Positions 6,497 to 38,086 of a stretch of 64,000 nt of DNA are shown piece after piece. The notes beneath the pieces were generated by a model. The model searched no databases. It had not been told where the DNA came from and saw only the letters and a program-made list of their open reading frames with translations. Made by a program: the position numbers and the translations under genes. Numbering within the stretch: the stretch's first letter is position 1; each line of letters begins with the position of its first letter. The DNA comes from the human T2T-CHM13v2.0 reference genome, Homo sapiens, in the NCBI RefSeq assembly GCF_009914755.1, contig NC_060933.1; one strand, 5' to 3'.

Positions 6497-6634
6497 CATT
6501 TATTGGCTACAAACAGCACTTTCCCTGACAGTGTCTTCCCTTCCTTGGCAAAGAGAGGAGTCTGCAGGAGGCACTGCACCTGGTACCAATGAGTCAGAGG
6601 CTCAGCTGGGGCTGTTGACAGCCAAACAGTTACC
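6497..6634 (-). pseudogene. CARM1P1: CARM1-like exon, 138 nt: (L)[47 protein letters not shown] (THW loop)
   Basis: Acceptor ttttcttgccctatag|G and donor ATG|gtaagc; THW motif of type I PRMTs. Confidence 0.96.
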
Positions 6635-6778
6635 CTATAGGGCAAGAAAAGAGATAAAAGCCAATCACATGCCAGACCCACATTAATGGGTTGGATTGGA
6701 AACTAAGGTTGATAGTGGTTTTTGTTCTTTTGACTCATAGAGCCCTTTGATGAGAAGGATAGCTCAATTTATGGAGCA

Positions 6779-7073
6779 GGTTGGGCGCGGTGGCTCACGG
6801 CTGTGTAATCCCAGCACTTTGGGAAGCCAAGGTGGGCGAATCACAAGGTCAGGAGATCGAGACCAGCCTGGCCAATACGGTGAAACCCCATCTCTACTAA
6901 AAATACAAAAATTAGATGGGCATGGTGGCAGGCCCCTGTAGTCCCCGCTACTTGGGAGGCTGAAGCAGGAGAATAGCTTGAACCCAGGAGGCAGAAGTTG
7001 CAGTGACTAAGATTACACCACTGCACTCCAGCCTGGGCGACAGAGCAAGACTCCATCTCAAAAAAATAAAATA
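6779..7073 (+). mobile_element. Full-length AluS
   Basis: Dimeric Alu with A-tail; TSD aatttatggagca (6766-6778) / aaattatggagca (7074-7086). Confidence 0.97.
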
Positions 7074-7761
7074 AAATTATGGAGCAAGTACCACATGTTG
7101 AGTACTGAATTAAGAGTTTATGTATATAATTTTAGTAAATCTATACAATCGTCCTATGAAGTATGCCCAGAGAGGTTAAACAACTTGCCCGACATCACAC
7201 AGGACAACTGGAGAGTCATGCTTCAAACTCATAGACTTGGCCACCATGGCAACCTGTATTTCTGAATCAAAGCTCATTAGAGGCCCAATAAGTAACAAGG
7301 TTAAATCAGAAGCTGATTTGCTTGACTAGTGTAGCAAAGGGAGATGTCTAGAGTCTGGTCTCTTACTGACTCCTGCCAACCTGTTCAGGGGTCTTGAAGG
7401 GGCTTCTGGAAGCAAGAAAAACTACTAGAGCAGATGACCTCTACCATGCTTCCAGCCCAGACATCCTGTGTGTGTCTGCCTGAGTGTTAAATTGAGTTTC
7501 CTCAGTTCATATGAAAAAGTGAGAAAGTCTTGCTGTGCTTCTACACCAAGGTCACGTGTTCAGTGGTTGTGCAGTGGTTGCTGGCTGGAGAGGAGCAAGG
7601 GGCACATTAAGCATGGGGAAAATTCCTAAAGGGTTAATTTTGACTAGAAGATTTGGGGAAAAATTTTATGTAATTTAGCTGCCTAAGAATATAAATGACC
7701 TTTATATCAAAATATACTGAGATATAATATAGAATAAAATGCAAATCTTCCTTCCCCTTCT

Positions 7762-7948
7762 TCTTTTTTTTTGAAACAGGGTAGAAACCCTGTTTTGAAG
7801 CCTGTTTTTCTGTTGCCCAGGGGATCAAGTGATTCTCCCACCTCAGCCTCCCGCGTAGCTGGGACTACAGGCATTCACCACCACACCCAGCTAATTTTTA
7901 AAAAATTTTTTGTGAGATAGGGTCTTGCTACGTTGCCCAAGCTGGCCC
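7762..7948 (-). mobile_element. Partial, rearranged AluJ-like element
   Basis: T-tract, cctcagcctccc..gtagctgggactacagg and gtcttgctacgttgcccaagctgg. Confidence 0.85.
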
Positions 7949-9044
7949 ACAAATTTTCTATATATATATTTTTTAAAAAGATAAAGCATTTAACTTCAAA
8001 GACACTTCCCCCTTGAGGTAGGCCACTTCAAGCTTGTCTCTCTCACCCTTGCAGGACCAAATTCATTTACATGGGTTATTACAGAGAGGAGCAAATGTAT
8101 GTATTCTTTGAACAAATATGTTCATACGGAGTCAAGATGATTTGTGCCTCATTTTATTTTTCTCAGATTGTCAGCTCTGACAAGGTTTCCAGGGGTCCCC
8201 TCTCTTGAGTCTTCCCCCAGACCCCCAAGCTGTATTACAGCCCCATGGGCATTTCTTTCTAAGCAGGTACAATGATAAGCCTGGGCATTCTCACAAGGAA
8301 TGGAGGAGAGTTACACGGTAAACATTTTCCTCCACTTGGGCATGTGACCCAGACCAGATCTCTTTGCTAGTTGGAACATACTAGAAAGCCTGGGAAGAGA
8401 GTAGGGCAGTCAGGAAGAGAACAGAGATTTGGTGGCCATGGAGTGGTGCAGCCCACATGAGGAACACCACACAGTGACAGCCAACGTGTAGGTAGTCTTT
8501 CCCCTCTTTTCCCTGCAACTTTCAAACCTGTGCAGTAGGAAGGTGCACAGATAGCGAATTTTCCTAATGTTGCAACTAGCATTAGTAATACACACCTGCC
8601 TGATCGTCACAGGACTCCAGAGTATAAACCAAAATCAGGAAAAGTATAATTCCAGGCATCACCCAGATACAAGAGATAGTATAACCAGGTGTGTCAGAAA
8701 CAAAAGCAAAGGCTTGGGGTACCACCCCATCGATTCTATTAAAGACCAAGAAGGTTCAAAAAGCACAAACCCTCTCTCACTCCTCCAAAGCTCAATTCAT
8801 TTGGCTTAAGAGGCTTTGCGTAGTTTAGTTAGAGTTGATATGACACACAGAAAAGCATCTCATTTTCACTTTTTCCTAAAATCTAAAATTAACATTAACA
8901 TCTGTGTTTATTTCCTTGAAAATTGGAGAAACAAGAATTAGTGTCATTAAAATCAATTATTAAACACTTTAAAATTGTGATTACAAATAGTAGATAGCAT
9001 GGGGTAGAGCAGACTGAGAAAATGTTGGTGGGGGGTATACATAC

Positions 9045-9132
9045 AGAGATCCAACAAATGCCACATCAAACCAGAACGCCAGGCCATGGATGAGCCCAGA
9101 CTGCCATCTGAAACACAAAGGGAATTTCTACT
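9045..9132 (-). pseudogene. CARM1P1: CARM1-like exon, 88 nt (90 expected), frameshifted: VEIPFVFQM/fs/QSGLIHGLAFWFDVAFVGS(L)
   Basis: Acceptor tttccttacag|A and donor TCT|gtatgt. ATG G CAG at 9107-9101 shows a missing dinucleotide; the shifted frame reaches TGA at 9068-9066. Confidence 0.95.
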
Positions 9133-11590
9133 CTGTAAGGAAATAAAAAAGATGAAAGACTCGAAACTATTGTTGTTGTTGGCAGATGTACTAGATACAT
9201 TTGTGAGGTCAGTAGGAATATTTTCTTTCTCTCTTGGGCACTTTTGCCTTGGCAGCCAAGTTCTCTCAGTGTGTGATTAATGCTTGGGTGATGCTGCACA
9301 TTTGAGAAGCTTACTTCTTGACAAAATCCTTCAAGAACCACGCTACTCTGCTGCAATGACCTGGAACTGCATAGGGTGAATGTAACATCTGGAGCTGGGT
9401 TTGACTAGAGAAGAGGAGCATGACTCAGGACACAGAGGGCAGCCATCCTTCAATAAGCCAAAGCATGGGCAGGGACAGTTCCCCTACAAAGCTGCTCAAA
9501 GGGAAAGGTTGTTCAGGCCTCTAAAAATGGACTGGAGCACAAAGGAAACATCGAGCTCAGAAGGCCATCCTCATAGTTAATTTCTTTTTGCGGGAGGCAA
9601 TTTAACTTCCAGTAGGCTATAACAAGAGTCATGCAGAAGTGGCTATGGTTTATGCCAAATGCAGAATAAGTAGGAATAGAAAGAATATTGGGAAATACAC
9701 AATGCAATCTAGATGCTGGACCTATTTTAGCTGTGGAACCTTGGAAGGCACTTAAATTCCCTGAAACTTGGTATCTGCATTTGTTGAAGGGTGACAAAAT
9801 CTCTCTCCTACTTTCCTCATAAGGTTCTTCTGTATGTTAAATGGAAAAACATGTATATAAGAGTTCTTTGCAAACATGTATATAGAGTTCTTTGCCAACT
9901 TTAGAGTGATTCATAATTAAGAGGTGATATTATTGGCTCATTGCTGGGGCTGTATCATTCCAAGGAGTTGGATTTTCTGAAGTGCTTTAGAAGTTTTCAA
10001 AGAAGGTTGTATGTTATCTGTATTCATGGTGTCCCCAAAGACTTAACTTCCTTCACTCTGCTGAAAATAAAATATTTCTAGAGTTTTCCATTGTACTTGG
10101 CACAGTGAATTTATTGGTCTTGACTGTTATTATTTCTTTTCATGTTTTGCATCTCCCTAGATAAACTATGAGCTCCTGAAGAATAGAGACTTTAAAAATT
10201 ACTTTCCACACATGTGCTAGCACCACCACAGTACCTGGCACATAGTAGGATCTCAATAAACATTTGCTGAATTGATGCACAAATGAATGAACGACATCGG
10301 TGGAAAACCCACATAGACATAATTTTCAAAATATTCCCTAGGATTCAGGAGGTAGTTCAGAGCAATAAATAAAGCTAATCAAAGTCGATTTTGTCTGGAT
10401 CTTTGATAGTTATTAAAGTCGTTTGCAAATGCCATTTCTCTTGCTCTGAGCATATGGAAGGATTGCAGTTTTCCATCCACTTGAGCTCAGGTACTGCCAC
10501 ATGATTTGCTTCAACTGATCAAATGTGAACGAAGTGACTTGTGCCGTTTCCAGGCAGAAGCTTTCATTGTCCTTGCATACTTTGACATACTCATTCTTTC
10601 TCCTCAGTGACCAGCATCATTTCAGATAGAAGCTGCTGCACTGGCCCAATTACTAGTGTGTGTAATGCATGGTAGAGATAAAGCTGGTGCATGATGGATA
10701 CATTGTGTAGAAAACAAGACACCTAAGTTATTAGAAGCCGCTGAGGTTTCTTTTTGTTTCTGCAGCATGTTCTAGCCTATCCTAACATCCAGGATACCCT
10801 TTGTGCATCATGATATCAAGATGGATGATTTTTTCATTAGCCAGATGCACCTTCTGAATTCTCACCCTTGCTTCTTCAGTAGCTCCAGGCAAACAACCAT
10901 CTGGCTAAGTCTTAACTTTCTTGTCCAGAAAACAAATATGACTATTAATCTTCTAAGGGAGAAAAAGACAAAATATGAGTGAAAAATCACCCCAAATGGA
11001 TTCATACCACTATCTAAATAAATGGAGCCAAGTCAAGGTAGGAATCCTCATTTCAGAGTCTTTTAAAATGGAGGGGAAGAGGACACAGATGAACATTTAT
11101 TGAGTGCCCTCTTTAGAAATCAGCTGGTGCCTCTAAAACACTTAGCACAGTACCTAGTAAGTAGAAAGTACTTAACAAGTTGTAGCTCTTTGCTTGTCCT
11201 TCATACATTCACTGGCCTAAGTGCATTCACATATATGCTGTTACTTTAGAGGCACAAAGCAGAGTGGCTAAAAGCACAGACTTTGGAGCCTTCTGAAAGG
11301 TTTAAATCCTAGTTCTAATATACTTTTTAATTCTGTGACTTTAGGCAACATATCATTCCACTTTGCCTCGTATGTGTCATCTATAAAATGGGGATAATAT
11401 CCTAGGAAGGAGACATCATTATCTTTATTTAGCAATAAATGAAGCTAATATTGACACATCATTCCCATATGTGACCAATATCTAAAATCTCTCCCCTGTG
11501 TGAGTAGCAAAAGTCTGCAATGAAGTTTTGTGGGTGGGAGATGTAGAGGGAAGATTTTAAACATCAAGAGCAACACTGATTTGCACAAAC

Positions 11591-11676
11591 CTGTGTAGAT
11601 CTTCCTCTTCTGCATCCATAAAGTTTGCTGTGTATTTGACTGTTCCAGCCATCAAAATCCTAACATCAAATGTGTC
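11591..11676 (-). pseudogene. CARM1P1: CARM1-like exon, 86 nt: [28 protein letters not shown](R)
   Basis: Acceptor tttttccccctaag|GAC and donor CAG|gtttgt; matches CARM1 [29 protein letters not shown]. Confidence 0.95.
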
Positions 11677-11944
11677 CTTAGGGGGAAAAATCAAAGATGT
11701 TACCTTTCTGCCAAGATAAACTGAGCTCAAGGAAATTTGAAGTTTAGCTTTTCTCCTGTAATTTTAAGTCATCAGTAGTTGGGATTTAGAAAGCATGAGC
11801 TTAATGAGAATACTGTTAACAATAAAAACGTTTATGAGTACCTACTATGTTAAGCACTGAGTGCTTTTCGTGCTTTACTAAGTGCTAAGGGCTTTACTAG
11901 GATATATCATTTACTCTATAAAAAATCTCTGGAGCAGGCATTTG

Positions 11945-11946
<2 letters not shown>

Positions 11947-11980
<34 letters not shown>
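11947..11980. repeat. (GT)17 microsatellite
   Basis: Perfect run. Confidence 0.98.
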
Positions 11981-11987
<7 letters not shown>

Positions 11988-11999
11988 CTATCCAGAATT

Positions 12000-12520
12000 T
12001 GTTTAGCAGTGCGGATTCATCTCTTCTCCACATTCTGTCCAAAAAGTTCCATGTGAACTTAGTCTACCCTCAGTAACAGGTGTGGCATATGACCCCAGAT
12101 TGGCAAGTCAGAGCACTACTTTTCCCCTGAAGACAGTGATTGATCCGTAGATGAGCACATAATCCAAGGTACGATAACCTCACTGAACTACCTAAACTAA
12201 ATCTGGAGCTCTTTGCTTAAGTTATTAGGAAAAGGCAGGCTTTCCTGTGGAATTTACAGTCGTAAGAATCAGAGGCTGGAGTTTCTGTAGCCATCTTGCT
12301 ACCATGAAGGGAAAGCCTGTCTAGGAAAAGAGTTAAATCAGAGGAAGTGGAGATAAGTGACAAGGATAGAAAAATCATGTCCTGGTGACATTTTTGGAGC
12401 CCCTGCAACAGGTGCCAGAAGCAAACTCTGTCTCCAGGCTTTGTAATTTTTGAAAGACAGTCATTCAATTTTAGCTTAAGCCAATTTGATTTTTCTCCCA
12501 CTTACAACTGAAAGAATTTC
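12000..12520 (+). mobile_element. Old MLT1-type MaLR LTR remnant
   Basis: gccatcttgctaccatgaagggaaagcctgtct...ttttagcttaagccaatttgatttttct..cacttacaactgaaaga. Confidence 0.6.
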
Positions 12521-12992: not shown

Positions 12993-13074
12993 TACTATTG
13001 GCTGCCTGAAGTATTCATCCACTGTAGCACCCTGGAGACTGGACAGATTGACCCCATAGAAACATTGCTGGTAC
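12993..13074 (-). pseudogene. CARM1P1: CARM1-like exon, 82 nt: (W)[27 protein letters not shown] (dimerization arm)
   Basis: Acceptor ctattttag|G and donor GTA|gtaagt; matches CARM1 [27 protein letters not shown]. Confidence 0.96.
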
Positions 13075-13249
13075 CTAAAATAGCACAAAAAATCACCATG
13101 CATCTTGTCTGTCATCTGAGTCCCCAGGCCCCCCATAGCTGTTATGTGCTTCGAGGCTGCCTCATGGGTGCTCTGCGTTAGCCCTAGGGAGAATGTTTGC
13201 ACATGTGAAGGGCAGCTGGTCTATAGGGTGTGGCAGGAAATTCTCTCTA

Positions 13250-13630
<381 letters not shown>

Positions 13631-14126: not shown

Positions 14127-14206
14127 TTAGGCTGTTGCAAAAGTGATTGTGGTTTTTGCCATTAAAAGTAATAGCAAAAACCGCAATTGCTTTTGCACCA
14201 ACCTAA
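14127..14206. mobile_element. MADE1 MITE (Hsmar1/mariner-derived)
   Basis: 80-bp palindromic element ttaggctgttgcaaaag...cttttgcaccaacctaa, flanked by TA on both sides. Confidence 0.93.
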
Positions 14207-22489: not shown

Positions 22490-22901
22490 TCGTTTGGTGC
22501 CTTAGGTGGTACATCACCTTTTAAGTGCCATCCCAGATCTTTCTTACCTGTCTCTGGAATCCTCAGCCACGTGTTCTGCACCAGCTATGCCAAAGGATGG
22601 GCTCCTCTGACCTCACATGGGCACGGTGCCACAATGTCTCACCCCAGGCCTGCACAGTGTGCCTCTCTCCTCCTGCCCTGGGGCATCCCTGTTAACTTTG
22701 GGTATGAGACGCCATAAGACCCAGAAGGGCTAGTTAATGTTGGCAGGATGGGTATTTGATAAATGAGGAGATAAAAGCCAGTGTATAAATTCGTTTATCT
22801 GCCGTATAAACTGTCCTGGATGTAGTTCATTTGATCTTTTGAAGATGGTCCTGAGAGAGCCAGCAATCCCGTTTAATACTACCTGATGGTCAGCATGGTA
22901 A
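22490..22901 (+). mobile_element. LTR16-like ERVL LTR, 5' part (continues at 25146-25260)
   Basis: Joined across the MER52 it reads cagcatgg(t/a)aatgcacattt...cttaataaa, similar to the LTR16 ataacgcacc...aataaa region. Confidence 0.55.
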
Positions 22902-25145
22902 CGATGGCAGCGGCAGCCTGTGCGAAGCAGCCGCTGCCATGACGCCGGCTGCAGTGGGGTACAGGAGTAGGTCGCGGGTCCTCAGGTACAGACTCTGAGG
23001 TGTGCAGCCCCTGGAGCCTGCACCTAGGAGCGCCCCCGGAACCTGCTGCCCTGAGAACTCACCCCTGGGAGCCCCGGGAATAGGGCTGGGCCCAGCCACC
23101 CCCTGGAGGGAGAGTAGGGAGGTGAGGCACAGAAAATGGGCAGAGAGGGTCCCCAAGACAGAACTGGGCCCAGGGCGGTGCCGCGCTTGCACGCGGAGCA
23201 TGGGGGCCGGGCCCGAGACATGGAACTGGGGCCCCGCTTCAGGGGCCCAGGGCAAGAAGTGGGAGCGGCACCCACTTCGAGGACCTGCCCAGTGGCATGA
23301 CCACTGCGCCCAACCCGCCGATGGCGCCAAGTTCCTGCGCCTCAGGAAGAGGCTCCGTATGGGGCCGCCTGAGGCCGTATCCCCAGGACCTGCCCCACAT
23401 TAAGGTGACCGCTAAGCCAGACAATCCTGATGGTGAGGCCCCGTGCCTGCCATCTGCTCCTGGAGACGCCCCCCAACCCCAGGCATGGCCGTCAGCCGGC
23501 GAGGCGGTACTGAGGCAGGGGGCGCGTCCTGGTCATTGGAGAGTTTCAGCCCAGTGGGTGAACCAGACACACTGTTCAAGGGGGCAGCGGTTAGTAAGCA
23601 GGACGAGGGGGAGCCCCAGGCCGCAGGGAGAACTCGTGACAACGTCACCCCTGCCCCAGTCGTAGGCCCGGGCCCAGTGAGGACATGAAGCCCCCGCCTC
23701 AGGCTGCAAGGAGGCGCCACCAGGGCTGCAAGCTCCACGGAGCTGGTGGGACCTGGAGACAGGCGAGAGCCCCGCCCCTTCCAATTTGGAGCAAGAGCTT
23801 CTAGGGTGCAGCTGCAGCCGCTGCAGGGTGGCTGCAGACCCAGGCATCTCTGCGCTCTTGGGGGCCCAGGAGGATCCGCTTGCCCCCAGCAGGCTGGGAA
23901 GTTCCTGCTGCTGCTGCCTGGCCTCTCCCTGCTGTTGGTGTCCACTTTGATCTTGGAGCTAAGTTGGGGCCGAGTCCAGGCGGTGTTGCAGTCTGGATAG
24001 GTGTGCACACGATTGCGGCAGTGTTAACACACCAGCCCCCTGCCACCTCGACCTCCTCTAGACTTTGGGCTCTGACAAACATGAAAGGGAGGCTTAGGGG
24101 TGGCTGAGGACAGCCCAGCACTGGCCTGCAGGCGCCCCTTGGCATGAAGGCATGGACAGTGGCTGGAGGCAGACAGGCTCCTGGGCAGAAGGGGACGGGT
24201 CCCTGGTGAAGCCTCACCTTCAAGCCAGGGAGGGCCTGAAACCTGAGGGCTGGGCCGCCAGTCACCCTGACCTGAGGGGAACTTGTGGTGCCTTCCCCTG
24301 GGTGGGCCCATAGCCACCTGTGGACCAATCAGCACGCACTTCCTCCCCTTTGAGTCCCGTAAAAACCTGGGATTCAGCCAGACTCAAAGGGAGGACGGAG
24401 AGACAACTGGATGAACAGCTGCAGAGAGGAGCTACCCTCTCTGCTAAGAGCTTAACCCTCTTCCGGACACCCTGGCTACAGAGAGGAGCTACCCACTGTG
24501 GGTCTCCTCTGAGCTGTTCTTTTGCTCAATAAAGCTCCTCTTCGTTTTGCTCACCCTCCACTTGTCTGAATACCTCATTCTTCCTGTATGCAGGACAAGA
24601 ACTCAGGACTCGCCATCCAGGGCTAAAAGAGCCGTGATACAAACATGGCTGAAACACACCCTTTGCTCTCCATTTTGCAGGCAAAAAGAAGAGGAGGGCT
24701 GCAGCCCTTCGGGGATCCCAGACCTGGGAGCTCCTTGAGCCAGGTCTGTGACTCTCTCTTTGGGGCCCTGCAGTTCCTGGAAGGCTCTAAGCTTCTGGGC
24801 ACTACTGTGTTCCCCAGTGCCAGCCGTGGAAGCTGACTGTAGTGCACCTGGTCCAGCTGTGGCCTTGCAGGGAGCCGGTGCCAGTGCTGGCACCTGGAGC
24901 TGCCTGTCCGGCAGCAGCAGTTGGCATGCCTGGCTATGCGCAGAGACCAGACCCCATGCTTGCTCACACACCCCTTGCCACTCCGCACCTGGCTTGCCCT
25001 TGGCATCCTGGGATCCAGGCTGGTAGTGTGAGCCGAATGCAGCCTGCCAGGCTGAGTAGGCAGAACCAAGCTAAACTCAGTCAAAGGTGCCACTGGCCAC
25101 AGAGGTTTCTGGCTGGCGAAGCAACACCCCAAAGATCTCATAATT
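22902..25145 (+). mobile_element. MER52-family ERV1 solo LTR (long, MER52D-like), GC/CpG-rich
   Basis: Starts gatggcagcggc...ccgctgccatgacgccggctgcag; CCAAT at 24325, AATAAA at 24528-24533; ends ccacagaggtttctggctggcgaagcaacacccc; 4-bp TSD gtaa/ataa. Confidence 0.88.
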
Positions 25146-27570: not shown

Positions 27571-28479
27571 GGTAGGTAAAATTATCTTCTTCAATTTATG
27601 GATTGAAATTAATCTCAGGGAGATTAAATTAACTTGGCTAAGGCTTTGCAGTTGGTAATTGACAGAACCAAGATTTAAACATAGTTCCATCTGGATCTAG
27701 AGTCTGAATCATCTGGCTTTTAACTACTACCTATTTTGTTTATGCTTTTATGTTCTATAACTGTAATAAATGTAAAAAAACAGTCTAGTTTAGTCTCAAG
27801 CTTCTTGACAATATTTGGCACACCTCTTAATTGATCCTATGTATATATTTTTCTTCATATGAGAATCCATTTAAAATTGTATCTACAGGCTTTGGGGTAA
27901 AACCCCTGAGCCAATTATTTTCAGTAATGCCAGAGGTACCCAACATATTAAGAAGAATTACATTTGGGAATGATGATTCTTTATGATGGGCCTTACTCTC
28001 AGGAGATAATTCTCATCACCTTGATTAATGGGGCCCAAGGAATCATCATATAAAAGATAATTAATATTTTTATAGGTGACTGCTACTAGCATCAGAATGT
28101 AATAATTTGGTCTACTAAGAGAGAGCCTCATAATTGGTTATTTGGAAAGGATAAAGTTATATAGTTATTGCAGACTGTGTACTAAGATGAATTTCAGAGT
28201 TAAATGCAAATTTTAAAAAATGTTACATGGAAAAGTAAAAACTTTAAAAAAGGAAGTTAATACCCAATTCATGGGGAGGGGGACAGGGAGCTAAAAAATT
28301 ACAAAGGAAAATAAAGAAACAAGAAAATACAATTACTGGTAGATCCAGCTACATAAAAAGTTTAAGTTGTTTTGTGGTCAAAACTATCACAAATAAAATC
28401 ACAAAGCAAGCTGGAAATTCTGAAGAAAATACGGCAGTCTTAATGTCCTTAATATAGACAGAATTTTTACAAATCAATG

Positions 28480-29600
28480 CATTTGTCTTCTAATCATCAA
28501 AAATGTCTGCAGCAACTACTGTTAACCAGGTTGGATGATGGGGCTACAGAAGTAAATGGAGCAGCCACACTTAGGGAACTTGTAGTCTCATGGGGGAGAT
28601 AGACAATAAATAAGTAAAAACATATAATATGGTATATGGTGATACGTGGTATAAAGAAAAATGAATTGAGAAGTGTGGTACAGGCTTGCAGGAGGAAAGA
28701 GACTGCAGTTTGTAATTAATAGAAGGTTTCTCTGGGACGGTGGCATGTGAGCAAAGACCTGCAGGAGGTGAGAAAAGTCACCGGATTGTCTGTGTCTTGG
28801 GCAGAGCGAATGTCAGGGAGGCAGGAGCATGCCTGATTTGTTCCAGGGAAAGCAAGGAGGCCAGCCATTGAGGCCAGAGGGGAGACAGAGTGAGAGAGGA
28901 AGTAGTAGGAGACAGAGTCAGAGGGGTAGCAAGGTAGGAACTAGATCATGTGTGGTCTTCCCAACCATTATGAGAACTTTGGCTTTCACTATGCAGAAAC
29001 AGGGAAGCCACTAGAAGACTTTACACAGTGAAATAATATAATCTGAATTATGTTTCATCAAGAGCGTGGTTGTTGTTTAAAAAGAGGATTTAAGTTAGAA
29101 GGCTATTGCCAAGACTGTAGTAGACACAGGGGTGTTTTGTTTTGCAAAGGTGGGCAGTGGGGAGATGGTGAGGATCAGTAGCTTGCATTTAAGCATGTTA
29201 ATTTTGAGATGCCCAATAGACATCCAAGTGGAGTTGTCAACAGCCAGTTGGACATCCAAGTCTGTGGTTCTGGGCAGAGGTCTGGGCTGGAGTTCTAACT
29301 ATGTGAGTTGTAGACAGAAAGATGGTATTTATAGCCAAGAGACAGAATGAGATCAAGTAAGACAGTGAGTGTTGACAGAAAGGGGAAGACATGTAAGAAA
29401 GAAACCTGGAGTCACTCCAATGTTAAAGATTTGGGCCATGAGGAAGAATCAGCAAAGGAGACTGAGAAGTAGGAGCCAGAAAGGTAGGAGAAAAACCAGG
29501 TTCAGGCTTGAGAAGCGGAGCAAAGAGAGTCAACTGTGTCAAGTGCAAATAATAGGAAAATCAGGTGAGGACTGAAAACTGACTGCATCTGATGATCTGG
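28480..29600 (-). mobile_element. L2 LINE fragment
   Basis: ttttgagatgcccaatagacatccaagtggag; gatggtatttatagcc; ggactgaaaactgac. Confidence 0.75.
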
Positions 29601-30579
29601 TTTAGCCAGTTGGTTGCTCCTTAATCTCTCAGCTGAGAGATCTCACCCAGACTTATTTTTCGCACCACTCCTCACCCCGCTCCCAGCGTACATATCCACT
29701 TCTTTGCTTCTTCTGACAGAAATCACGCAAGCATTCACCACCTGTTTCCTGGATCAAAGCAGCAAGATACTCAAATGCCAGTCATCTAATGCAGAAACCT
29801 CACAAAGGGAGAGGAATTAGAAGGAAAGCAAAGGCTGTGAATTTTGATAACTATATATTTTTTAAAATATTTTTCTGTTTGTTGACTAAAAATAATCGTT
29901 CAAATGCACCAGCTATCAAAGAAATACAGATTAAAAATAAACTGGCCACCATTTTTTTTGCAAATCAAATTGGCATTTTAAAAAGCATATCCCGTATGGG
30001 CAAGAGTTAGCAGACATTCCCAAATACCACTGGTGGAAGTGTTAATTGGTAAAACTTTTCTAGAGGGCAATTTGGCAATATATAAGAATAATTTTTTATA
30101 AGTTGCTTCTTCACATTTTTTGGTCCAGTAATTCTGCTTTTAGCAATTTATCATACGGAAATAATCAGAATGTACACCAAAATTTATATGAAAGGAGGTT
30201 CACTTTAGTGTTGTGTCTTATAGAATTTAGGATATAGAATTCTATAGGATTCTATATTCTTACAGAATATTGAAACCTTGCTGTGGTTTGTTATAGAATC
30301 TATAGGACTAAAATAGCAATTCAAATAATTTAATATTCAACATTGAAACTTGAGTTAATAAATTATGAGTAACAAAATACTCTTCAGCCAAAAGTATGTA
30401 AATGATATGAGAACATGTCAACAAAGTATTGTGAAAGTAAAAAAACAAAACAAAACAAAACCAAGCTATAAAATGGTACTTATGATTCTGTTTTTGTAAA
30501 GAAAGGAGAGAAAAACCGGAAATATATCACCTACAATCTTAATAATTATTTTCATGCATGTTTGGGCATACTGAAGTTT

Positions 30580-32010
30580 TTATTCATTCAGAAACATTTA
30601 CTGAGAGCCTACCCTGTGGCAGGCACTGTTCTGGGTGCTTGGGATACATCAGTGGAAACTGACAGCACTGCTGACCTTGCAGTGCTTACATTTTATCAAG
30701 AGGGATACAGACCATAGATAATAATAGGAAGGGGTTATATATCTTTTAGGATGCTGTAAGTGTTCGAGGAAAAACACAGAATTGAAAAAGAAGGGTTGGG
30801 CATGGTATGGGTACAATTTAAAATAGGATGGTCAGGGTAGATCTCATTGAGAAGGTGGCATTTGACAAAGACTTCATGGAGTTAAAAGAATTGACCACGT
30901 GAACATTGAGGAAAAAGTATTCAAAGTAAAAAAAAAAAACAAAAAAAACTGCAAATGCGAAGGCCCTAACTTAGGAGCATGCCTGATGTGTCTGAGGATC
31001 AGCACACAGGCCTGTGCAGCAGGAGCCAAATGAACATGGTAGTAGGAAATGAGACTAGAGAGTACCTAGGAGCCAGACTATGAAGAAGCTCCTGCGAGGC
31101 TTTGGCTCTGTTGAGAAGAGACAGGTAAGAAGCTATTGCAGTAATCTAGATGAGAGACGATGGTGTTGAGAAAACGAGGAAACAGAGAATATAATAAAAA
31201 TTGGTGTGATTCTGGATACGTTTTGAAAATAGAACCAATATAATTACTTGACGGTTTGGATTCAGGAGATAAAGAAAGAGAGGCCTTCAAAATTCTTGGC
31301 TTGAATGATGGAGAGGATAAAGTTGTTATCAACTGAGACAGAAAAACTGTGAGTACAGTAGGTTTTGGGTAGACATTGGGAGATCAGAAGTTGAATTTTG
31401 CACACAGTAAATTTCTGCAAGGGGGGAAACATCCAGGAGGCAATTGGCTAGGAAAATACAAAGTTTGGAGGATACGTCTGCACTGGAGAGGGACACTTGG
31501 GAACCATTAGTCTATGGATGGTATTTGTAGTTATGAGAATGGGTGAGCTCACCAAGTGAGCCTGCACAGAGAAAAGATCCAAACACTGCGTCTTGGGGCA
31601 CTCCAACATCAGGGTCTTATGGAGACAAGTAACAGCGAAGGGATAGCTGGTTGAGAAAGTTCCAGCAAGGGAGGAGAAAAATCAAAAGATCATGGGGCAA
31701 AAAGAGTGTTTCAAATGATGCCGGTAAGTTAAATAAGTTGAGAAGTGACAGTTGATCACTGGAATTAGCAATGTGGAGGTCAGGGCACTGGTGACCTCGA
31801 AAAGAGTGGTTTTGGAGAAATGGCTCCAGTGAGAAACAGAAGGGGGGAATTGGACACTGAGTATAGACAACTCTTTTGAGGAATTTTGCTGAAAGGGGCT
31901 TAGAGAATTGGCCATGGCTGACTGGGAAAGCGACATCTAGAGAAGATTATGTTTTCGTTTTTGTTTCTGTTTTTCATTTTTAGATGCAATAAATAGCAGC
32001 ATGTTGGTAC
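30580..32010 (-). mobile_element. L2 LINE 3' fragment
   Basis: ttcattcagaaacatttactgagagcctaccctgtggcaggcactgttctggg (L2 3' end) followed by L2 body. Confidence 0.8.
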
Positions 32011-33091
32011 GTGGTGGAAATCTGAGCCAAACCACTGTGATCATTAATATCCTCAAGTTAGTAAGATGGCAGCAGATGGTATGGTTGGAAGGTCACACAA
32101 GGACTGCCTGGACAACAAACCTCTAGTTTGTTGGTCTGGTCTATTCTGCTACTTAAAATTCGTAACCCTTTCATCTCTGCATTTCCTCAGGAGGTCATAA
32201 TTCAAATGTAATCATTTAGGGTCAGCATAATCTCACAGAACAATGATTATTGAGGTAAAAGCTCCCCCACCGTCCCCCTGCCCCAACTGACACATATATA
32301 CACCAAGAAGCCATTCACCCCCACGGGAAAGCCTGTGGCTTAGAATCTCAGAATTGTAGATTCAACAAAACCACAAAATGCCCTGAATCTGTGCTAGGAA
32401 AGTCTACTTTGCCAAAAAAAAAATGGAAAGAAAAATCAGCCATTTGACCCCACTCCTCAAAGAGTTTAGTAGCCCAGGAAACCAAAGTACCTCCTATTTG
32501 CTGTCCCTTCTCTAGGATTACAAAGAGAAAAACCCAGAAATCAACTTTGGACCTCTTTGTATTATAAGGCCCTGTATACCTCAGACCAAAGTCAAACCTT
32601 AAATTTGAGGATCCTGACCCCCCTGCAGGCCATGCCTGTGCTCCCACACATGTAACATTCCAACAAGGATGAGATCTGCTCTCTTTCTCCCTCCCATTCT
32701 CGTTCCTTCCTTCTTCTTGTAAAAACCAGTTCTCAGAAAGGAATCCCAGAAACAATGGTGGTTTAAAACCGGCAGGAGCTTTTGTATCAGTTCCCATTCT
32801 ACACATAAAGAAATTCAATCTCAGACGGGTGAGGTGGGTGTAAAAGCCAACCGCCAATTAAAACTCAAAAAGGGTTTGATCAACTCATTTATCAGGTGTA
32901 CTGATTGATATGTTCTCTGACAAGGTCAAGTCCTAACAGAAGCCATTGCCCTGAGTCAAAGAAGTGGATGGTGAAAAATGGGAAGAGAGCAACAGCAGGC
33001 AGGGGAGGATATTGTTTTAGCAGCAGGATAGCTTTCCGGATGTTTGATGTTGCATGAACGGCTCCTTGATTCACCTGTCTCTGATTTATGA

Positions 33092-33327
33092 GTAGTGGTC
33101 TCAACTGGGGGTGATTTTGACCTGCAAGGGGACATTTGGCAATGTCTGGAGAGCGTTTGTGGTTGTCATAACTCTGGGGGGAAGATGATATCTAGTAGGT
33201 AGAGACCAGGGATACTGCTAAACATACTACAGTGTACGGGATAGGTGCCTCACTGCCGCCGCCTCCCCTCTCCCCACCAAACAAGAGGCATATGACCCCA
33301 ATTAGCAATAGTTTTAAAAACTCTGGT
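33092..33327. mobile_element. MER20 (hAT-Charlie MITE)
   Basis: gtggtctcaactgggggtgattttg...ggggacatttggcaatgtctggag. Confidence 0.85.
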
Positions 33328-33368
33328 TTACTTTGAAGGGAAAGGAAGGGAGGAGAAAAGAACATTAC

Positions 33369-33459
33369 CAAAAATTGGCTCTGGAGAAGTGTTCCACGTA
33401 GAGCTGTTCATCAGAAAAAGGGGCCAAGTGGATGTCGCTGAATGTCGGGAACATCATTC
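33369..33459 (-). pseudogene. CARM1P1: CARM1-like exon, 91 nt: (G)[29 protein letters not shown](W)
   Basis: Not in the ORF track; read by hand. Acceptor ttttgctcattag|GA and donor TTTTG|gtaatg; matches CARM1 [31 protein letters not shown]. Confidence 0.96.
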
Positions 33460-34639
33460 CTAATGAGCAAAACACAACAGACCCAGAAGTCAGTTTCTAT
33501 TGCTTTCTGATTGAAGGCTATACTCACCTGCCACCTGAGAGCAATTCCATTCTTTTGCTTCAGTTATGACATGACAGCATAAAATATAATTTTGTCTCAA
33601 TGCAAGTATAAAAAATTAGGCAGAAGAGTAGAGGGGCTATAGAAAAGAATATCAAAGCAAGTCAGAAAGCAATACAATGATAAAAGCTTGTAGAGACTTA
33701 GGCAAGCCGTTTAACCTGGCAGTTGCCTTCTCAGCTACTGGCTTTTTTTTTCCTTTCTGTATGTCCTATGAATTCTGGATATGTTTATTTATTTATTTAA
33801 TCTCTTATTTATTGTAACAATAATTTAGCTTTAAAAATAATCACAATCCCATCCTTCCATCACATTATTATTCTCATTCTCAGACTTTGTCCATGTAGAA
33901 TCAGATCGACCACCTGTCTTCTTAGGTGCTGTTGGGATTTATGTTTTTATGGATGCTCACCAATCTTTATGCTGGGAAATACACATTTGTGCTTATTTCT
34001 TGGCATCCACAATCACCACAGGAAAGGTAGATTCTTCAGTGGGCAAATGAGCACCTAGATTGGCATGCCTGAAGTCGGGCCTTTCTGAGTAGGCAGACCT
34101 GATGATCAGCATTGTTACTCTTGCAATTTTAGGGAAAATCTTTTTATAGCCATTTATTAAATTGCACATGAAAGAAAGAGGAACTATTAACTATATTTCA
34201 GAAATAAGGCTGACTTAAGACACCAGAGATGTTGTCATAAAAACAACAATAATAGCTAAAATTTCTCAGTTATGATAACCCTGTCATGTACTTTTCCAAG
34301 GGCTTCCCATGCATTAATTTATGTAATTCTCATACTAAGATAAAGTGGGTTCTATTATTATGTGCATTTTATAAACAAGAAAACAGAGAAATTTACATTA
34401 TTTGGTCACGATCACAGAGCTAACAAATAGCGGAGCAAAATCCAGGGAGTGGAATCTCATCTGATAGTCAGTGCCCCATCCTGAAACTATGTGGCTTTCC
34501 ATATCTGTTAAAACAGATTATTTTACTTGGGGTATTTTCAGAAGTGGTCAGGGGCAAAGCATGATCATAACCTCATTAATATGTCCCCATCTAAATCTCA
34601 GGCATTGGTATCAAAACAATAATGATTGCTTAGTGGTTT

Positions 34640-36185
34640 TTCAATTTCGAGATGATAGAAGGATATTAAATAACCTCAGAGAAGTAATATGTATCTCTGC
34701 TTGTGTAAACTTGGGAAGATTTAGAGGATGATGTTATGAGCCTCAACCTAATAGGAATTCTAAGAATGTCAGATAAAATGGAGGGGAGAAAATCAAATGT
34801 AAAATATTTTGAAAATTCTGAGAGCAGAAGAAAATCAGACTCCTGATTAAACATGTTCACTGAATTTCCAGCACAAGAACTGAAAAAAGATTCTCATTAG
34901 AACACTAGAAATAAAGAGAAGATACTAAAAGCATCTAGAGGGGAAAACTTTGTTACTCTAAAGGAGCAGGTGTCAGAATGGCATTGGAATTCTCAATAGC
35001 AAGATTTGCAGACAGAAACAAAACACAAAAACCAAAACACCAAGCTTTAAAAATATTGAGTAAAAATTGTTTTTAAGTTATATTCTTGACCAAATAATAA
35101 TACAAGGGCTCGATAAAAAGTAACTTCTCAAGCTCCTTTTCTGCAGAAGCTGGTAGAGAATATCCTTTGCCGAAATGATGTCGTAAACCAACAAAGAGGA
35201 AGACAAAAGGATGATGATAGAAAGTCAATGTATGACAGTCATGAGATGGGGCTGGAGAACACTCAGTTCATGTTGCTAGGGAAGGCCAGAGGACTACTGA
35301 ATAGAGGGGAGCAACAGAGGAACACATATTGATTGGCATCTGTCAGATCTACTGGAGCGTAGAAACATTTAGCCACAAATATATAAAAGCTAAGCTAATG
35401 AAAGAAACCAAGACAATTAACTCCAGGAAAAACAAAAGACTATATGAGAAAACATACATAAGCATAGAGCATCTACTATACCAACTGACTCAGAATTCAA
35501 CAATAGTTACATTACATCATAACACTGGAAACGCTGATTCTTAATTTAACCAAATAATGATCTAGGCCTATATTTCTTTATGCTAAATTCTGAGATCTGA
35601 AAAGCAACAGGTTTTTATAAGTTTGCAGCAGCATCATTTCATGGCAAAACCTGACCTGAACTGACAGGACAGTTTATTTGTAGTCTTTATTTATTCCACT
35701 TTGTATCAATATTCTTATGTTTTGTTGCAGCAATATAATGTCTTTCATTACAGAGTGTTGCCTCAGATCCCACTGGGGAGAATTAAGTAATGCATGGTAG
35801 GTGATATTAACTTTCCAAAGTCCTTCTTCTGAATTCTGAAACATATCTGGCACCAAGGGTTGGGATAAAGGAACTGAGGACCTATCTAAATATATTGAGA
35901 GAATGGGGGTGGGGTAGGTGCATCAGGAAGGAAGGAGCTGCTATTCAGGAAAGCTAAATTCTCAAGCAGAGAGTGACGAGAATAGCAATGTAATCATCTT
36001 AGACAGGAATATGTAGGTAAATAATAGAAGAAACAACAGATAGAGTTGAAAGCAGTTGCCTTTGGGGAGCAGTCTGATGATAGAAGGAGGCGTGGCAGAA
36101 GGCTACTATTTTTCATTATAAGCCTTTTTATTATTAATTGATGTTTTAAACTATGTCTTATTTTGATGGAATATATAAATAATTA
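34640..36185 (+). mobile_element. Old L1M fragments with a nested MER96B-like DNA element (about 35565-35884)
   Basis: ORF1-like ataaagagaagatactaaaagcatctagag; MER96-like aattctgaaacatatctggcaccaagggttgggataaagg. Confidence 0.6.
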
Positions 36186-37099
36186 GAAAAAAATCAATCA
36201 CCCTTCCCTGAGGAATACATAGCCTAGAAAGCCAATAAAATCAGTATTCATTTCTACTTGCCTAAAGATATATAGCCCAGTATAAAATGTCATATTCATT
36301 TCAAATACCCGGGGAGAAAAGATACCTAGATATTATCTAAATACTCAGTTTAAGAGGGGCTCAGGTGATGCACGTGAATTAACTACATTACAAATCTCAT
36401 CATACAGAAGCACCTAACCATCTGAAAATGTCCAGGAAAAAAACATACAAATTCTTCCTGGAGGCATTGAGGAGGAAATCCAAGCCACTTTGTACCTTCA
36501 CTTTCATCTCCCACAGTTCAATTTTATCGCATACACACAAGGCTTCCAAGAGCGTCCTGAGCTGTTTTACAGCAAGATTGCTAATGAAGTTCTTGATGTT
36601 AGGTATACTTTGCCTGAGCTTATTTATTTATTTATACATGAGTTTTCTTTTAGTGCCTATTTCTGAAGTTTGAAGCATGTAGGAAATTATAAACTTCAAA
36701 CTTCACTTATATGCATGTTGGTATGTATGAGTTGCATGGTTGTTCACTATTTCGTTTTCATTGAATATCAAGGTACGGAGCTACAACATTGGTAATTTAA
36801 GTAAATACAACTGGGGAAGGAGCTGAAATTCTCATGAGATGCAACTTAAAATTGGCAAGTTATCTGCCATGCTTTAATTGAAAACACCTGCTGTTGGAAT
36901 GTGCCAACTTTCTCTGGTGAAGAGTGGAAAGCTAGTGTGTGTGCCCAAGTTATGAGTGTAGGCTTCAGTGTCAGATGGATGTAGGCTGAAATTCTTGGCC
37001 TGCCAATTGTTAGATGTTTGTTCTCGCCATGTTACTTTTCCTCATTGAGTCTCAGTTTTCTCTTTATAAAATGGGATGATAACAACGTCCCCCGCTAAC

Positions 37100-37315
37100 C
37101 CAGATCTCAATCGTATACCATTGACATTTTGGGCTAGATAATTCTTTGATGTAAGGGACTGCCTTGTGCATCGAAGGATGCTTCACAGCATCTTTGCCCC
37201 TATTCACTAGATGCTAGGATCCCAGCCCCTGCTGCCATTGTGACAACCAAAATGTCTCCAGACATTGTCAAATGTCCCTGGGGAAGGTTGCAAAATTAGC
37301 TTCAAGGATAACCCC
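37100..37315. mobile_element. MER20
   Basis: attgacattttgggctagataattcttt...ttgtgacaaccaaaatgtctccagacattgtcaaatgtccctgggg. Confidence 0.85.
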
Positions 37316-37908
37316 TCAAATAAATTGAAAACCTTCATCATTCAGACTTTATAAGGATTTTATAAAATAATTTATTCAAATTGCTTAGCACATGCAGTCA
37401 CTTGGAAAGCACAAAAAGCATATTAGATTTAATATTATCTTGACTATGTGTAGTGATCATAGACAGAGAGAGAAATACAGTAGGGAAAAAATATACCAAA
37501 AAGAACAAGCAGACCCCAGACAGTTCCTCAATTACAGAAGGCCAACACTTGAAAGGACATTGGAGATTATGTGTAATAATGTCATTATACAGATGAGGAA
37601 ACCAAGGCCAAAAGGTCAAGTGTTAGCCCAAGTTAATTAAGGAATGAAGGGATTGAACTAGGACAAAAAACACAGAACTCAGACCTGGCTCTCTACACCA
37701 TGTTGAATACTGTGCAGCATACCTGTGTTCTTACGATTGGAGATGAGTTAATTTGTTATGGAAGAATGAGATGAGAAAAACAAATAATTGAGTATAACAG
37801 AAATGCTCTCTCCTTCTTTCTGTACAGAACCAGATGTAGGGGACAGAGAGTGGCAAAATTTTACACAGAAGTTAGACTGTTTTTTAAACCAAGAATGGGC
37901 CAACTTAC

Positions 37909-38086
37909 CATTTGATTTTAGCCATTTTTTGGAATGAAGATAACTCTCTAGCATCCGTTCATTGAACAGCATGTATCCCATTGGTTCGGAAATGATCATA
38001 TCTACAGCCTCAGGAAGTGAGACGTCTTCAGTTTTTCCTGGCAAAACAATGATCTTGTCTGAAAGGTGATTGTTTTTCACTAGCAT
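37909..38086 (-). pseudogene. CARM1P1: CARM1-like exon, 178 nt: [60 protein letters not shown] (double-E loop)
   Basis: Acceptor ttttcag|ATG and donor AATG|gtaagt; open frame; contains the [11 protein letters not shown] motif. Confidence 0.97.

What the first reader, a model, noticed from the sequence alone, without database searches (positions are those of the whole stretch)
6497..38086. A nearly intact second CARM1: ancient intron-containing paralog with one visible lesion across 222 codons
Seen: six exons, all with GT-AG sites, splice in phase to about 222 aa. The only disruption is one 2-nt deletion, with no in-frame stops otherwise. Known: CARM1 has the same exon sizes and phases, and my hand alignment to the recalled sequence gives about 73% identity, mostly conservative changes. 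Inference: that much protein divergence with preserved splice sites and frame means long purifying selection as a separate gene, not a decayed recent copy. This looks like a unitary loss of a distinct PRMT4 paralog (CARM1L, possibly from vertebrate genome duplication) that may still be coding in other mammals or primates.
Basis: partly seen in the sequence, partly recalled or inferred. Interest (0 to 1): 0.85.

Follow-up and report, generated by a model that had tools for sequence, protein, structure and literature searches.

The report
Dead human copy of CARM1L gene
This stretch holds six exons of the broken human copy of CARM1L, an ancient sister gene of the arginine methyltransferase CARM1 that is still intact in many other vertebrates, including a lemur.

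Summary
On the minus strand the window carries six exons (38086-37909, 33459-33369, 13074-12993, 11676-11591, 9132-9045, 6634-6497). All have AG/GT splice sites. Their sizes are 178/91/82/86/88/138 nt, against 178/91/82/86/90/138 in CARM1 exons 6-11. There is one 2-nt deletion and no internal stop. Protein identity to human CARM1 is 162/221 (73.3%).

These exons are 85-97% identical to a separate, roughly 460-aa 'CARM1-like' protein. That protein is intact in sharks, ray-finned fishes, amphibians, reptiles, birds, a monotreme, a marsupial and 17 sampled placentals, including the primate Microcebus. A maximum-likelihood tree splits CARM1 from CARM1L at 100/100 and puts the human sequence inside placental CARM1L, next to the lemur. 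An AU test rejects a recent CARM1 duplicate (p 6.65e-56). Gene order matches the spotted gar (vldlr, kcnv2a, pum3, carm1l), and chr9p24 and chr19p13.2 share many paralogue pairs.

The full relic has 12 recognisable exons over 274 kb and three disabling lesions, two of them outside the window. RefSeq's CARM1P1 span covers only exons 2-7. The date of the loss is unresolved but probably recent. This is a well-supported unitary pseudogene, which is a known kind of thing. I found no paper describing it as such.

The parts
37909..38086 (-). Exon 6 of the CARM1L relic (178 nt, phase 0). It encodes the end of the AdoMet-binding fold and the double-E loop (...[19 protein letters not shown]...).
   Evidence: AG/GT sites and the same length as CARM1 exon 6. 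It is 73% identical to CARM1 and 86% identical to lemur CARM1L. The best PDB matches are CARM1 chains at E 8e-27.
33369..33459 (-). Exon 7 (91 nt). This is the last exon inside RefSeq's CARM1P1 span, which ends at window position 33366.
   Evidence: AG/GT sites and the same length as CARM1 exon 7. It is 97% identical to lemur CARM1L over 33 aa.
12993..13074 (-). Exon 8 (82 nt), outside the RefSeq pseudogene span.
   Evidence: AG/GT sites and the same length as CARM1 exon 8. It is 90% identical to lemur CARM1L.
11591..11676 (-). Exon 9 (86 nt), outside the RefSeq span.
   Evidence: AG/GT sites and the same length as CARM1 exon 9. It is 84% identical to lemur CARM1L.
9045..9132 (-). Exon 10 (88 nt, against 90 in CARM1). 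It carries the 2-nt deletion.
   Evidence: The stretch RVEIPFVFQM(A) matches lemur CARM1L at 11 of 11 positions up to the break. After a shift of one base, QSGLIHGLAFWFDVAFVGS follows. The donor is GT once the alignment is read without gaps.
9104..9105 (-). Site of the 2-nt deletion (frameshift). One leftover base of the broken codon is at 9104.
   Evidence: nucleotide alignment to CARM1 exon 10; two tblastn pieces in different frames, ending at 9102 and starting at 9127.
6497..6634 (-). Exon 11 (138 nt). It encodes the beta-barrel and the THW loop (...LTHWYQV...).
   Evidence: AG/GT sites and the same length as CARM1 exon 11. Pfam PRMT_C scores 27.5 bits against a cut-off of 27. Identity to lemur CARM1L is 82% over an HSP that includes intron flank.
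6497..6498 (-). First two bases (TG) of a split codon. With the first base of exon 12 (A, chr9:2910964, 3,036 bases beyond the window's start) it reads TGA, a stop.
   Evidence: CARM1 has AG|A (Arg) here, and the seven CARM1L proteins printed have R or Q at this position.

Best explanation
The window holds exons 6-11 of a unitary pseudogene. It is the dead human ortholog of CARM1L, a second PRMT4-type arginine methyltransferase gene that arose together with CARM1 before the last common ancestor of jawed vertebrates. The most likely origin is one of the early vertebrate genome duplications.

In species that keep it, CARM1L encodes a protein of about 460 aa. It has the CARM1-type N-terminal PH-like domain, a complete type I PRMT core (motif I, double-E loop, THW loop) and the beta-barrel/dimerisation domain. 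It ends one or two residues after ...LDLKNPFFR, so it lacks CARM1's C-terminal ~130-aa domain.

In the human lineage the gene kept its 12-exon architecture, its splice sites and a CpG-rich first exon. The reading frame was broken by a 5-nt tandem duplication in exon 5, a 2-nt deletion in exon 10 and a TGA at the exon 11/12 junction.

Shown here: exon structure, lesions, orthology, and paralogy to CARM1. Inferred: that intact CARM1L is an active methyltransferase, that the duplication was a whole-genome event, and that the human loss is fairly recent (roughly in the last few tens of millions of years).
For: Structure. The relic has 12 exons from chr9:3185271 to chr9:2910875, and every intron has AG/GT sites. 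Exon lengths are 126, 107, 105, 116, 178, 91, 82, 86, 88, 138 and 90 nt for exons 2-12. CARM1's are 126, 107, 105, 111, 178, 91, 82, 86, 90, 138 and 90. Exon 1 begins with an ATG, is 80% identical to lemur residues 1-61, and lies in sequence with GC 0.65 and CpG observed/expected 0.80.

Orthology. Human exons are 85-97% identical to Microcebus CARM1L, against about 73% to CARM1. Whole-length identity to the lemur protein is 403/458.

Tree. The CARM1 | CARM1L split has 100/100 support, and both sides follow the order chondrichthyans, then actinopterygians, then sarcopterygians. The human sequence sits inside placental CARM1L (100/100). The AU test rejects a clade with mammalian CARM1 (p 6.65e-56).

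Age. pS is 0.79 (saturated) against pN 0.17 between CARM1 and the relic.

Synteny. Human VLDLR-KCNV2-PUM3-CARM1P1-RFX3 compares with gar vldlr, kcnv2a, pum3, carm1l (paper passage). Paralogue pairs by gene name between chr9p24 and chr19p13.2 are DOCK8/DOCK6, KANK1/KANK2, SMARCA2/SMARCA4, VLDLR/LDLR, RFX3/RFX1-RFX2, CDC37L1/CDC37, JAK2/TYK2 and RLN1-2/RLN3.

Domains. PF11531 and PF22528 are above cut-off in lemur, gar and shark CARM1L. PF11531 is above cut-off on human exon 2.

Copy number. A six-frame search of the human genome with lemur CARM1L found only the chr9 relic, CARM1 itself, and weaker matches at six other places (chr1, chr5, chr11, chr12, chr19:52.68 Mb, chr21).
Against: The tree has no invertebrate or jawless-vertebrate outgroup. 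'Before the gnathostome ancestor' therefore rests on each clade mirroring the species tree, not on a rooted tree.

The paralogue pairs were read from gene names, not tested by sequence. Synteny outside human comes from one sentence in one paper.

The human line shows no significant excess of amino-acid change over the intact lemur gene: 23-28 private changes against 17-20, p 0.18-0.65. At columns invariant in all other placentals the human excess is only modest: 9/214, against 0-10 per 183-216 columns in the others. So the evidence for relaxed constraint is the three lesions, not the substitution pattern.

I could not check whether the lesions are fixed in people or shared with apes and monkeys. 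I also could not measure dN/dS on any CARM1L branch. No enzyme activity has been shown for any CARM1L in the papers I found.
Confidence: 0.93

Rival explanations
1. It is an unprocessed (duplicated) pseudogene: a comparatively recent genomic copy of CARM1 that decayed, as the name 'CARM1 pseudogene 1' suggests.
For: It keeps CARM1's introns, exon sizes and phases, and RefSeq files it as a pseudogene named after CARM1 (annotation given with the finding).
Against: The AU test rejects a clade with mammalian CARM1 (delta lnL 344, p 6.65e-56). Synonymous sites are saturated (pS 0.79). The exons are 85-97% identical to lemur CARM1L but about 73% to CARM1. Intact orthologs exist from sharks to placentals. 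The position matches gar carm1l.
Confidence: 0.01
2. The gene is still protein-coding in people. Either the lesions are private to this assembly or polymorphic, or splicing bypasses them.
For: All splice sites, the start codon and a CpG-rich first exon are kept. The locus is transcribed strongly enough to name a cortical neuron type (passages read in PMC8494638). The human line shows no significant rate acceleration.
Against: There are three independent disabling lesions in three different exons or junctions. Skipping exon 5 would remove motif I and post-I, and skipping exon 10 (88 nt) would itself shift the frame. RefSeq annotates no coding transcript here. Exons 5 and 10 encode core catalytic-fold segments.
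Confidence: 0.03
3. The relic has been re-used. Either its transcript works as a cell-type-specific non-coding RNA, or the still-open first 204 codons (N-terminal domain plus the start of the methyltransferase fold) give a short protein. This does not exclude the unitary-pseudogene reading.
For: The ATG, the CpG-rich exon 1 (145 bp from the start of LINC01231 on the other strand) and all splice sites are preserved. Papers use CARM1P1 as a marker for deep layer-3 glutamatergic neurons. The frame is open from the ATG to the stop in exon 5.
Against: No test of function was found in the papers searched. A stop in exon 5 of 12 or more exons would normally trigger nonsense-mediated decay (established knowledge). 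Preserved splice sites may simply reflect a young loss.
Confidence: 0.1

Closest known systems
CARM1 / PRMT4 (human chr19p13.2)
   Same: Same exon sizes and phases for exons 2-12, apart from the two indels. Same N-terminal PF11531 domain, methyltransferase core and PRMT_C barrel. Motif I, the double-E loop and the THW loop can be read in the relic's translation. The best solved-structure matches are CARM1 chains.
   Different: Only 73% protein identity, with saturated synonymous sites. It forms a separate clade at 100/100. CARM1L proteins stop just after ...LDLKNPFFR and lack CARM1's C-terminal ~130 residues. The CARM1L clade has path lengths about four times longer than CARM1 since the crown of jawed vertebrates (branch lengths). 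The human copy is broken.
Vertebrate CARM1L ('histone-arginine methyltransferase CARM1-like' in NCBI models; carm1l in fishes)
   Same: The human relic is its positional and phylogenetic ortholog. It is 88% identical to the Microcebus protein (403/458) and sits inside the placental clade. It has the same neighbours as gar carm1l.
   Different: The human copy has a 5-nt duplication, a 2-nt deletion and a junction stop. The orthologs listed are stop-free models, two of them flagged LOW QUALITY PROTEIN by NCBI (Suncus, Podargus).
Other human unitary pseudogenes (for example METTL21EP, named in the passages read from PMC13137591; GULOP, recalled)
   Same: A single-copy gene that is intact in other mammals and disabled in place in the human lineage, with no functional human counterpart of the same orthology group.
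   Different: Here a slowly evolving ohnolog (CARM1) remains and may cover part of the function. The relic keeps every splice site and is a widely used neuronal marker transcript.

Membership tests
PRMT4/CARM1-type arginine methyltransferase genes | CARM1-specific N-terminal PH-like domain (Pfam PF11531) | tested here: met
   chr9:3057095-3057238 (-) scores 47.1 bits against a cut-off of 22; 108.9-118.5 bits in lemur, gar and shark CARM1L.
PRMT4/CARM1-type arginine methyltransferase genes | Class I methyltransferase core with PRMT motif I, double-E loop and THW loop, plus the PRMT_C barrel | tested here: met
   [29 protein letters not shown] and THWYQ can be read in the relic's translation. 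Which residues are catalytic is recalled, not tested. PF22528 scores 27.5 bits on exon 11 and 70.6-79.1 bits in orthologs.
PRMT4/CARM1-type arginine methyltransferase genes | Open reading frame able to give the enzyme | tested here: not met
   There are three disabling lesions, so the human locus is a relic of the family, not a working member.
Unitary pseudogene | Intact orthologs in other species, to which the sequence is closer than to any gene of its own genome | tested here: met
   In one search, 59 of the 119 new proteins are closer to the relic than to human CARM1.
Unitary pseudogene | Disabled in place, at the ancestral position | tested here: met
   Human neighbours are VLDLR, KCNV2, PUM3 and RFX3. 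The gar order is vldlr, kcnv2a, pum3, carm1l (passage in PMC8042750). Synteny in other mammals was not tested.
Unitary pseudogene | No intact copy of the same gene elsewhere in the genome | tested here: met
   the six-frame search with lemur CARM1L finds the chr9 exons, CARM1, and weaker matches at six other places (E 9.5e-53 to 8.8e-4, 31-59% identity). Closed regions of the reference are not shown, so absence is not absolute.
Duplicated (unprocessed) pseudogene of CARM1 | Branches from within or beside the parent gene of the same lineage | tested here: not met
   100/100 split; p-AU 6.65e-56.
Processed pseudogene | No introns; poly-A tail | tested here: not met
   Eleven introns are retained at CARM1's positions across 274 kb.
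Ohnolog pair from early vertebrate genome duplication | Duplication older than jawed vertebrates and younger than the invertebrate chordates | tested here: inconclusive
   Both clades hold chondrichthyans and bony vertebrates in species-tree order, which sets the lower bound. No invertebrate or lamprey row was available, so the upper bound is untested.
Ohnolog pair from early vertebrate genome duplication | Both copies lie in paralogous chromosome blocks | tested here: met
   at least eight same-family gene pairs between chr9:0.2-5.3 Mb and chr19:6-14.2 Mb. These were read from gene names, and homology of the pairs was not recomputed.

The most novel reading that the evidence does not exclude
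Many placental mammals (carnivores, a cetacean, bats, shrews, a pangolin, xenarthrans, a rabbit, mole-rats, a colugo, a lemur) carry a working tenth PRMT, CARM1L, which the standard nine-member list omits because it is broken in humans. The human lineage lost it only recently. The relic is not inert: its conserved CpG promoter still drives neuron-type-specific transcription in deep layer 3 of the cortex, and the RNA, or the still-open 204-codon N-terminal reading frame, has a role there.
Probability: 0.1. Interest if true: 0.75.

Novelty: new member of a known kind. Interest (0 to 1): 0.5.

Why it matters
The protein arginine methyltransferase family is usually described as nine canonical enzymes. 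A 2026 family review states this in the passages I read and does not mention CARM1L in those passages.

The data here show a further CARM1-type gene, old enough to be shared by sharks and mammals, that is intact in many mammals but broken in humans. This matters in several ways. Experiments in species that keep CARM1L (rabbit, dog-like carnivores, bats, zebrafish-like fishes) may have a second CARM1-like activity that human cells lack. It gives a dated, testable case of gene loss on the primate line. It corrects the meaning and extent of a locus, CARM1P1, whose transcript is a standard marker of a human cortical neuron type. RefSeq's span covers exons 2-7 only, whereas the relic runs 274 kb from a CpG-rich exon 1 beside LINC01231 to exon 12.

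It is not a new kind of element.

Tried and rejected
Alu noise. The first tblastn of all stop-to-stop pieces of the CARM1 locus against the window was swamped by Alu-derived matches. I filtered by multiplicity and strand.

Pfam on single exons. Results were mostly empty: 4 of 6 pieces had no family, one had a PRMT5 match below its cut-off, and one had PRMT_C at the cut-off. Exons of 20-63 aa are too short.

Protein searches. The first search (CARM1 exon-1 open frame) served only to obtain CARM1 protein ids. The second (profile A1) listed 120 proteins, all true CARM1, so CARM1L stayed hidden below the list limit. The third used a shorter carrier so that the length filter (170-542 aa) excluded most full-length CARM1. 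That search revealed CARM1L. Alignments A2, A3 and A4 were discarded because MAFFT misplaced short pieces, and A5 was used.

Not found. Homologs of CARM1 exons 13-16 were not found on chr9:2884001-2910874. This is explained by CARM1L proteins ending just after exon 12. The tiny last coding exon of CARM1L was not located.

Timing. Three lesions in 1,385 nt give a Poisson 95% range of 0.62-8.77 expected events. With recalled primate rates of substitution and indels this points to very roughly 3-50 million years, centred near 15-20. This is inference only. No anthropoid CARM1L protein is among the 120 rows, but such proteins could be hidden inside 90% clusters (P0163 has 124 members, P0176 has 11), so I draw nothing from that.

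Rows used and dropped. The tree used 59 rows: 57 picked by hand for taxonomic spread out of the 250 proteins fetched (41 CARM1L-type and 16 CARM1), plus the chr19 model and the relic. The other 193 proteins were left out, mostly near-duplicates, isoforms and fragments. The identity classing is crude. It puts shark and most fish CARM1L with CARM1, and it puts one core-less Xenopus fragment (P0017) with the relic. The tree is the better guide.

Literature. Searches were 'CARM1P1' (30 papers, all using it as a marker or in gene lists as far as the listing shows), 'CARM1L' (10 papers, 2 about the fish gene), CARM1P1+unitary (2 papers, both about synaptic 'unitary' events), 'CARM1-like'+paralog (0), CARM1+'unitary pseudogene' (3 held, 2 listed; I read passages of one, the 2026 family review, and none concerned this locus; I did not open the other listed paper, a coronary-disease GWAS preprint), and PRMT+CARM1+ohnolog (0). 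I read passages only, never whole papers. From memory, not from any call, GENCODE may already label the locus as a transcribed unitary pseudogene.

Other scans. Rfam found 0 matches in the window. Tandem Repeats Finder returned 0 rows at score 200 or more.

Full report
WHAT IS THERE. The window is chr9:2914001-2978000. RefSeq places the pseudogene CARM1P1 at chr9:2947366-3057229 on the minus strand and annotates no transcripts or other features in the window.

I fetched the CARM1 locus on chr19 and 184 kb around the window. I translated every stop-to-stop piece of the CARM1 locus and searched chr9 with the pieces. After removing Alu noise, a colinear series of minus-strand matches appeared for CARM1 exons 2 to 12. 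I then rebuilt the human CARM1 coding exons from chr19, using pig and bat CARM1 proteins as guides, and aligned each exon with flanks to chr9.

Within the window there are six exons: 38086-37909, 33459-33369, 13074-12993, 11676-11591, 9132-9045 and 6634-6497. All have AG acceptors and GT donors. Their lengths are 178, 91, 82, 86, 88 and 138 nt, against 178, 91, 82, 86, 90 and 138 for CARM1 exons 6-11, with identical phases. The single frame break is a 2-nt deletion in exon 10 at 9104/9105. Read through it, the 221 codons contain no stop and are 162/221 (73.3%) identical to human CARM1. Nucleotide identity is 466/663 (70.3%).

THE WHOLE GENE. A six-frame search of the human genome with the lemur ortholog (see below) found exon 1 at chr9:3185089-3185271. 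It starts with ATG at 3185271 and has a GT donor. It lies in sequence with GC 0.65 and CpG observed/expected 0.80, 145 bp from the start of LINC01231 on the other strand.

The full model has 12 exons from chr9:3185271 to chr9:2910875, a span of 274 kb, and every intron has AG/GT sites. There are three disabling lesions:
- a 5-nt tandem duplication in exon 5 that runs into a stop;
- the 2-nt deletion in exon 10;
- a TGA formed across the exon 11/12 junction, where CARM1 and CARM1L have Arg (Gln in the rabbit protein).

The first and third lesions lie wholly or partly outside the window. RefSeq's span corresponds to exons 2-7 only.

WHAT IT IS RELATED TO. Solved structures closest to exon 6 are CARM1 chains (E about 1e-26), well ahead of PRMT6, PRMT8 and PRMT1. 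The CARM1 N-terminal domain model hits chr9 exon 2 above its cut-off.

The second protein search returned only true CARM1 orthologs. The third used a profile built from the CARM1 core plus the chr9 exon translations, with a length window of 170-542 aa. It returned 120 proteins. About half of these are a distinct class, named 'CARM1-like' by NCBI in many rows, with a median length of 460 aa. In one search, 59 of the 119 new proteins are closer to the relic than to human CARM1.

Members of this class come from:
- chimaera, sharks and rays;
- gar, bowfin and teleosts;
- coelacanth and lungfish;
- frogs and caecilians;
- squamates, turtles and birds;
- echidna and a dunnart;
- placentals: sloth, armadillo, anteater, pangolin, seal, stoat, orca, bats, shrews, rabbit, pika, two mole-rats, a colugo and the mouse lemur.

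The human exons match the lemur protein at 85-97% per exon and 403/458 overall. These proteins carry PF11531, the methyltransferase fold and PRMT_C. They end one or two residues after ...LDLKNPFFR. This explains why no homologs of CARM1 exons 13-16 were found on chr9.

PHYLOGENY. I built a careful maximum-likelihood tree of 59 rows (41 CARM1L, 16 CARM1 proteins, my chr19 model of human CARM1, and the relic with X at its three breaks). It used 512 columns and the LG+C20+F+G4 PMSF model. CARM1 and CARM1L are separated by a branch with 100/100 support. With the root placed on that branch, both halves follow the species tree: chondrichthyans first, then ray-finned fishes, then lobe-finned fishes and tetrapods.

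Nine genera appear on both sides: Mustela, Sorex, Heterodontus, Lepisosteus, Amia, Chanos, Scleropages, Astyanax and Pseudophryne. The two groups are therefore paralogs, not alleles or misassemblies.

The human relic sits inside placental CARM1L (100/100), sister to Microcebus (91/75) and then the colugo (84/73). Holding it together with mammalian CARM1 costs 344 log-likelihood units (p-AU 6.65e-56). The tree has no outgroup, so the duplication is shown to be older than crown jawed vertebrates but not bounded from above.

SYNTENY AND ORIGIN. Human gene order is SMARCA2, VLDLR, KCNV2, PUM3, CARM1P1, RFX3, GLIS3. A paddlefish genome paper lists the spotted-gar order as vldlr, kcnv2a, pum3, carm1l (passage read).

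CARM1 on chr19 is flanked within about 3.5 Mb by TYK2, CDC37, SMARCA4, LDLR, KANK2 and DOCK6, with RFX1, RLN3 and RFX2 a little further away. The first 5.3 Mb of chr9 hold DOCK8, KANK1, SMARCA2, VLDLR, RFX3, CDC37L1, JAK2 and RLN1/2. These pairs are same-family genes by name. I did not recompute their homology. Together with the tree, this fits an ohnolog pair from an early vertebrate genome duplication.

SELECTION AND TIMING. Between CARM1 and the relic, 79% of synonymous sites differ (saturated; GC3 is 0.77 against 0.49), while pN is 0.17 (398 codons). Most of the divergence therefore accrued under purifying selection.

On the human line the picture is mild. At columns invariant in all other placental rows the relic has 9 private changes in 214. 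Good-quality orthologs show 0-6, and three partial or long-branched rows show 10 each. A three-taxon relative-rate count gives 23-28 human-only changes against 17-20 lemur-only changes, p 0.18-0.65 across six outgroups. End branches are 0.12 for human and 0.085 for lemur.

The relic therefore looks like a gene that was constrained for most of primate history. With three lesions (Poisson 95% range 0.62-8.77) and recalled primate mutation rates, I infer a loss within roughly the last few tens of millions of years. This cannot be pinned down without other primate genomes.

HOW IT WORKS. Shown: the human locus cannot encode the full enzyme. Inferred from established PRMT knowledge: intact CARM1L should be an active type I arginine methyltransferase. 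Motif I, the post-I acidic residue, the double-E loop and the THW loop are all present, and they can still be read in the human relic. It should dimerise through its PRMT_C barrel and recognise partners through the CARM1-type N-terminal domain. It would lack whatever CARM1's C-terminal domain contributes.

CARM1L evolves about four times faster than CARM1 (path lengths). No functional study of CARM1L turned up. Two papers mention fish carm1l in passing.

The human locus is still transcribed. Single-nucleus studies named a deep layer-3 glutamatergic neuron type after CARM1P1 (passages read). That fits the preserved CpG-rich first exon, but it says nothing about function.

NOVELTY. The locus is annotated, and its orthologs are annotated as CARM1-like or carm1l. 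What I did not find in print is the link between them: that CARM1P1 is the unitary pseudogene of an ancient, widely retained second CARM1-type gene. A 2026 review of human and mouse methyltransferase genes cites another unitary pseudogene, and its passages on PRMTs list nine canonical enzymes without CARM1L (passages only). Supplementary tables were closed and may hold it. Database biotypes may already say 'unitary' (recalled, unverified). I rate this as a new member of a known kind, of moderate interest.

LIMITS. No non-human DNA was available, so there are no codon models and no lesion sharing among primates. There is no outgroup. NCBI gene models may hide corrected frameshifts (two rows are flagged low quality). 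Closed regions of the reference could hide matches. All papers were read as passages only.

Noticed in passing
window 22900-24500: A GC-rich stretch (GC 0.57-0.68 per 500 bases, CpG observed/expected 0.22-0.44) lies inside intron 7 of the relic. It is a dispersed repeat: 76 matches at more than 40 places in the genome, at 71-77% identity over several hundred bases. It is not in the list of masked repeats. ORFs on both strands have no Pfam match.
   Followed up: partly
window 28000-32000: The + strand is markedly purine-rich (GC skew 0.16-0.36, AT skew 0.11-0.19 per kb), with no tandem repeat at score 200 or more. The cause was not identified.
   Followed up: no
chr9:3185094-3185271 (271 kb beyond the window's start, minus strand; locus L023): Exon 1 of the relic has an intact ATG and a GT donor, in CpG-rich sequence (GC 0.65, CpG observed/expected 0.80). 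It is 145 bp from the annotated start of LINC01231 on the opposite strand. This looks like a shared bidirectional promoter that outlived the coding frame.
   Followed up: partly
chr9:2947366-3057229 versus chr9:2910875-3185271: RefSeq's CARM1P1 span covers only exons 2-7 of the relic. Exon 1 and exons 8-12 are unannotated.
   Followed up: yes
exon 5 (chr9:2996245-2996360) and exon 10 (window 9045-9132): The +5 and -2 indels sum to +3. A straight translation of the spliced exons falls back into the original frame after exon 10. Between the two indels it hits many stops.
   Followed up: yes
window 6776-7084, 13324-13624, 40026-40423, 46302-46605, 62429-63973 and others: Alu-like repeats in both orientations dominate naive protein-level comparisons between this window and the CARM1 locus. 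One lies about 140 bases from exon 11.
   Followed up: no
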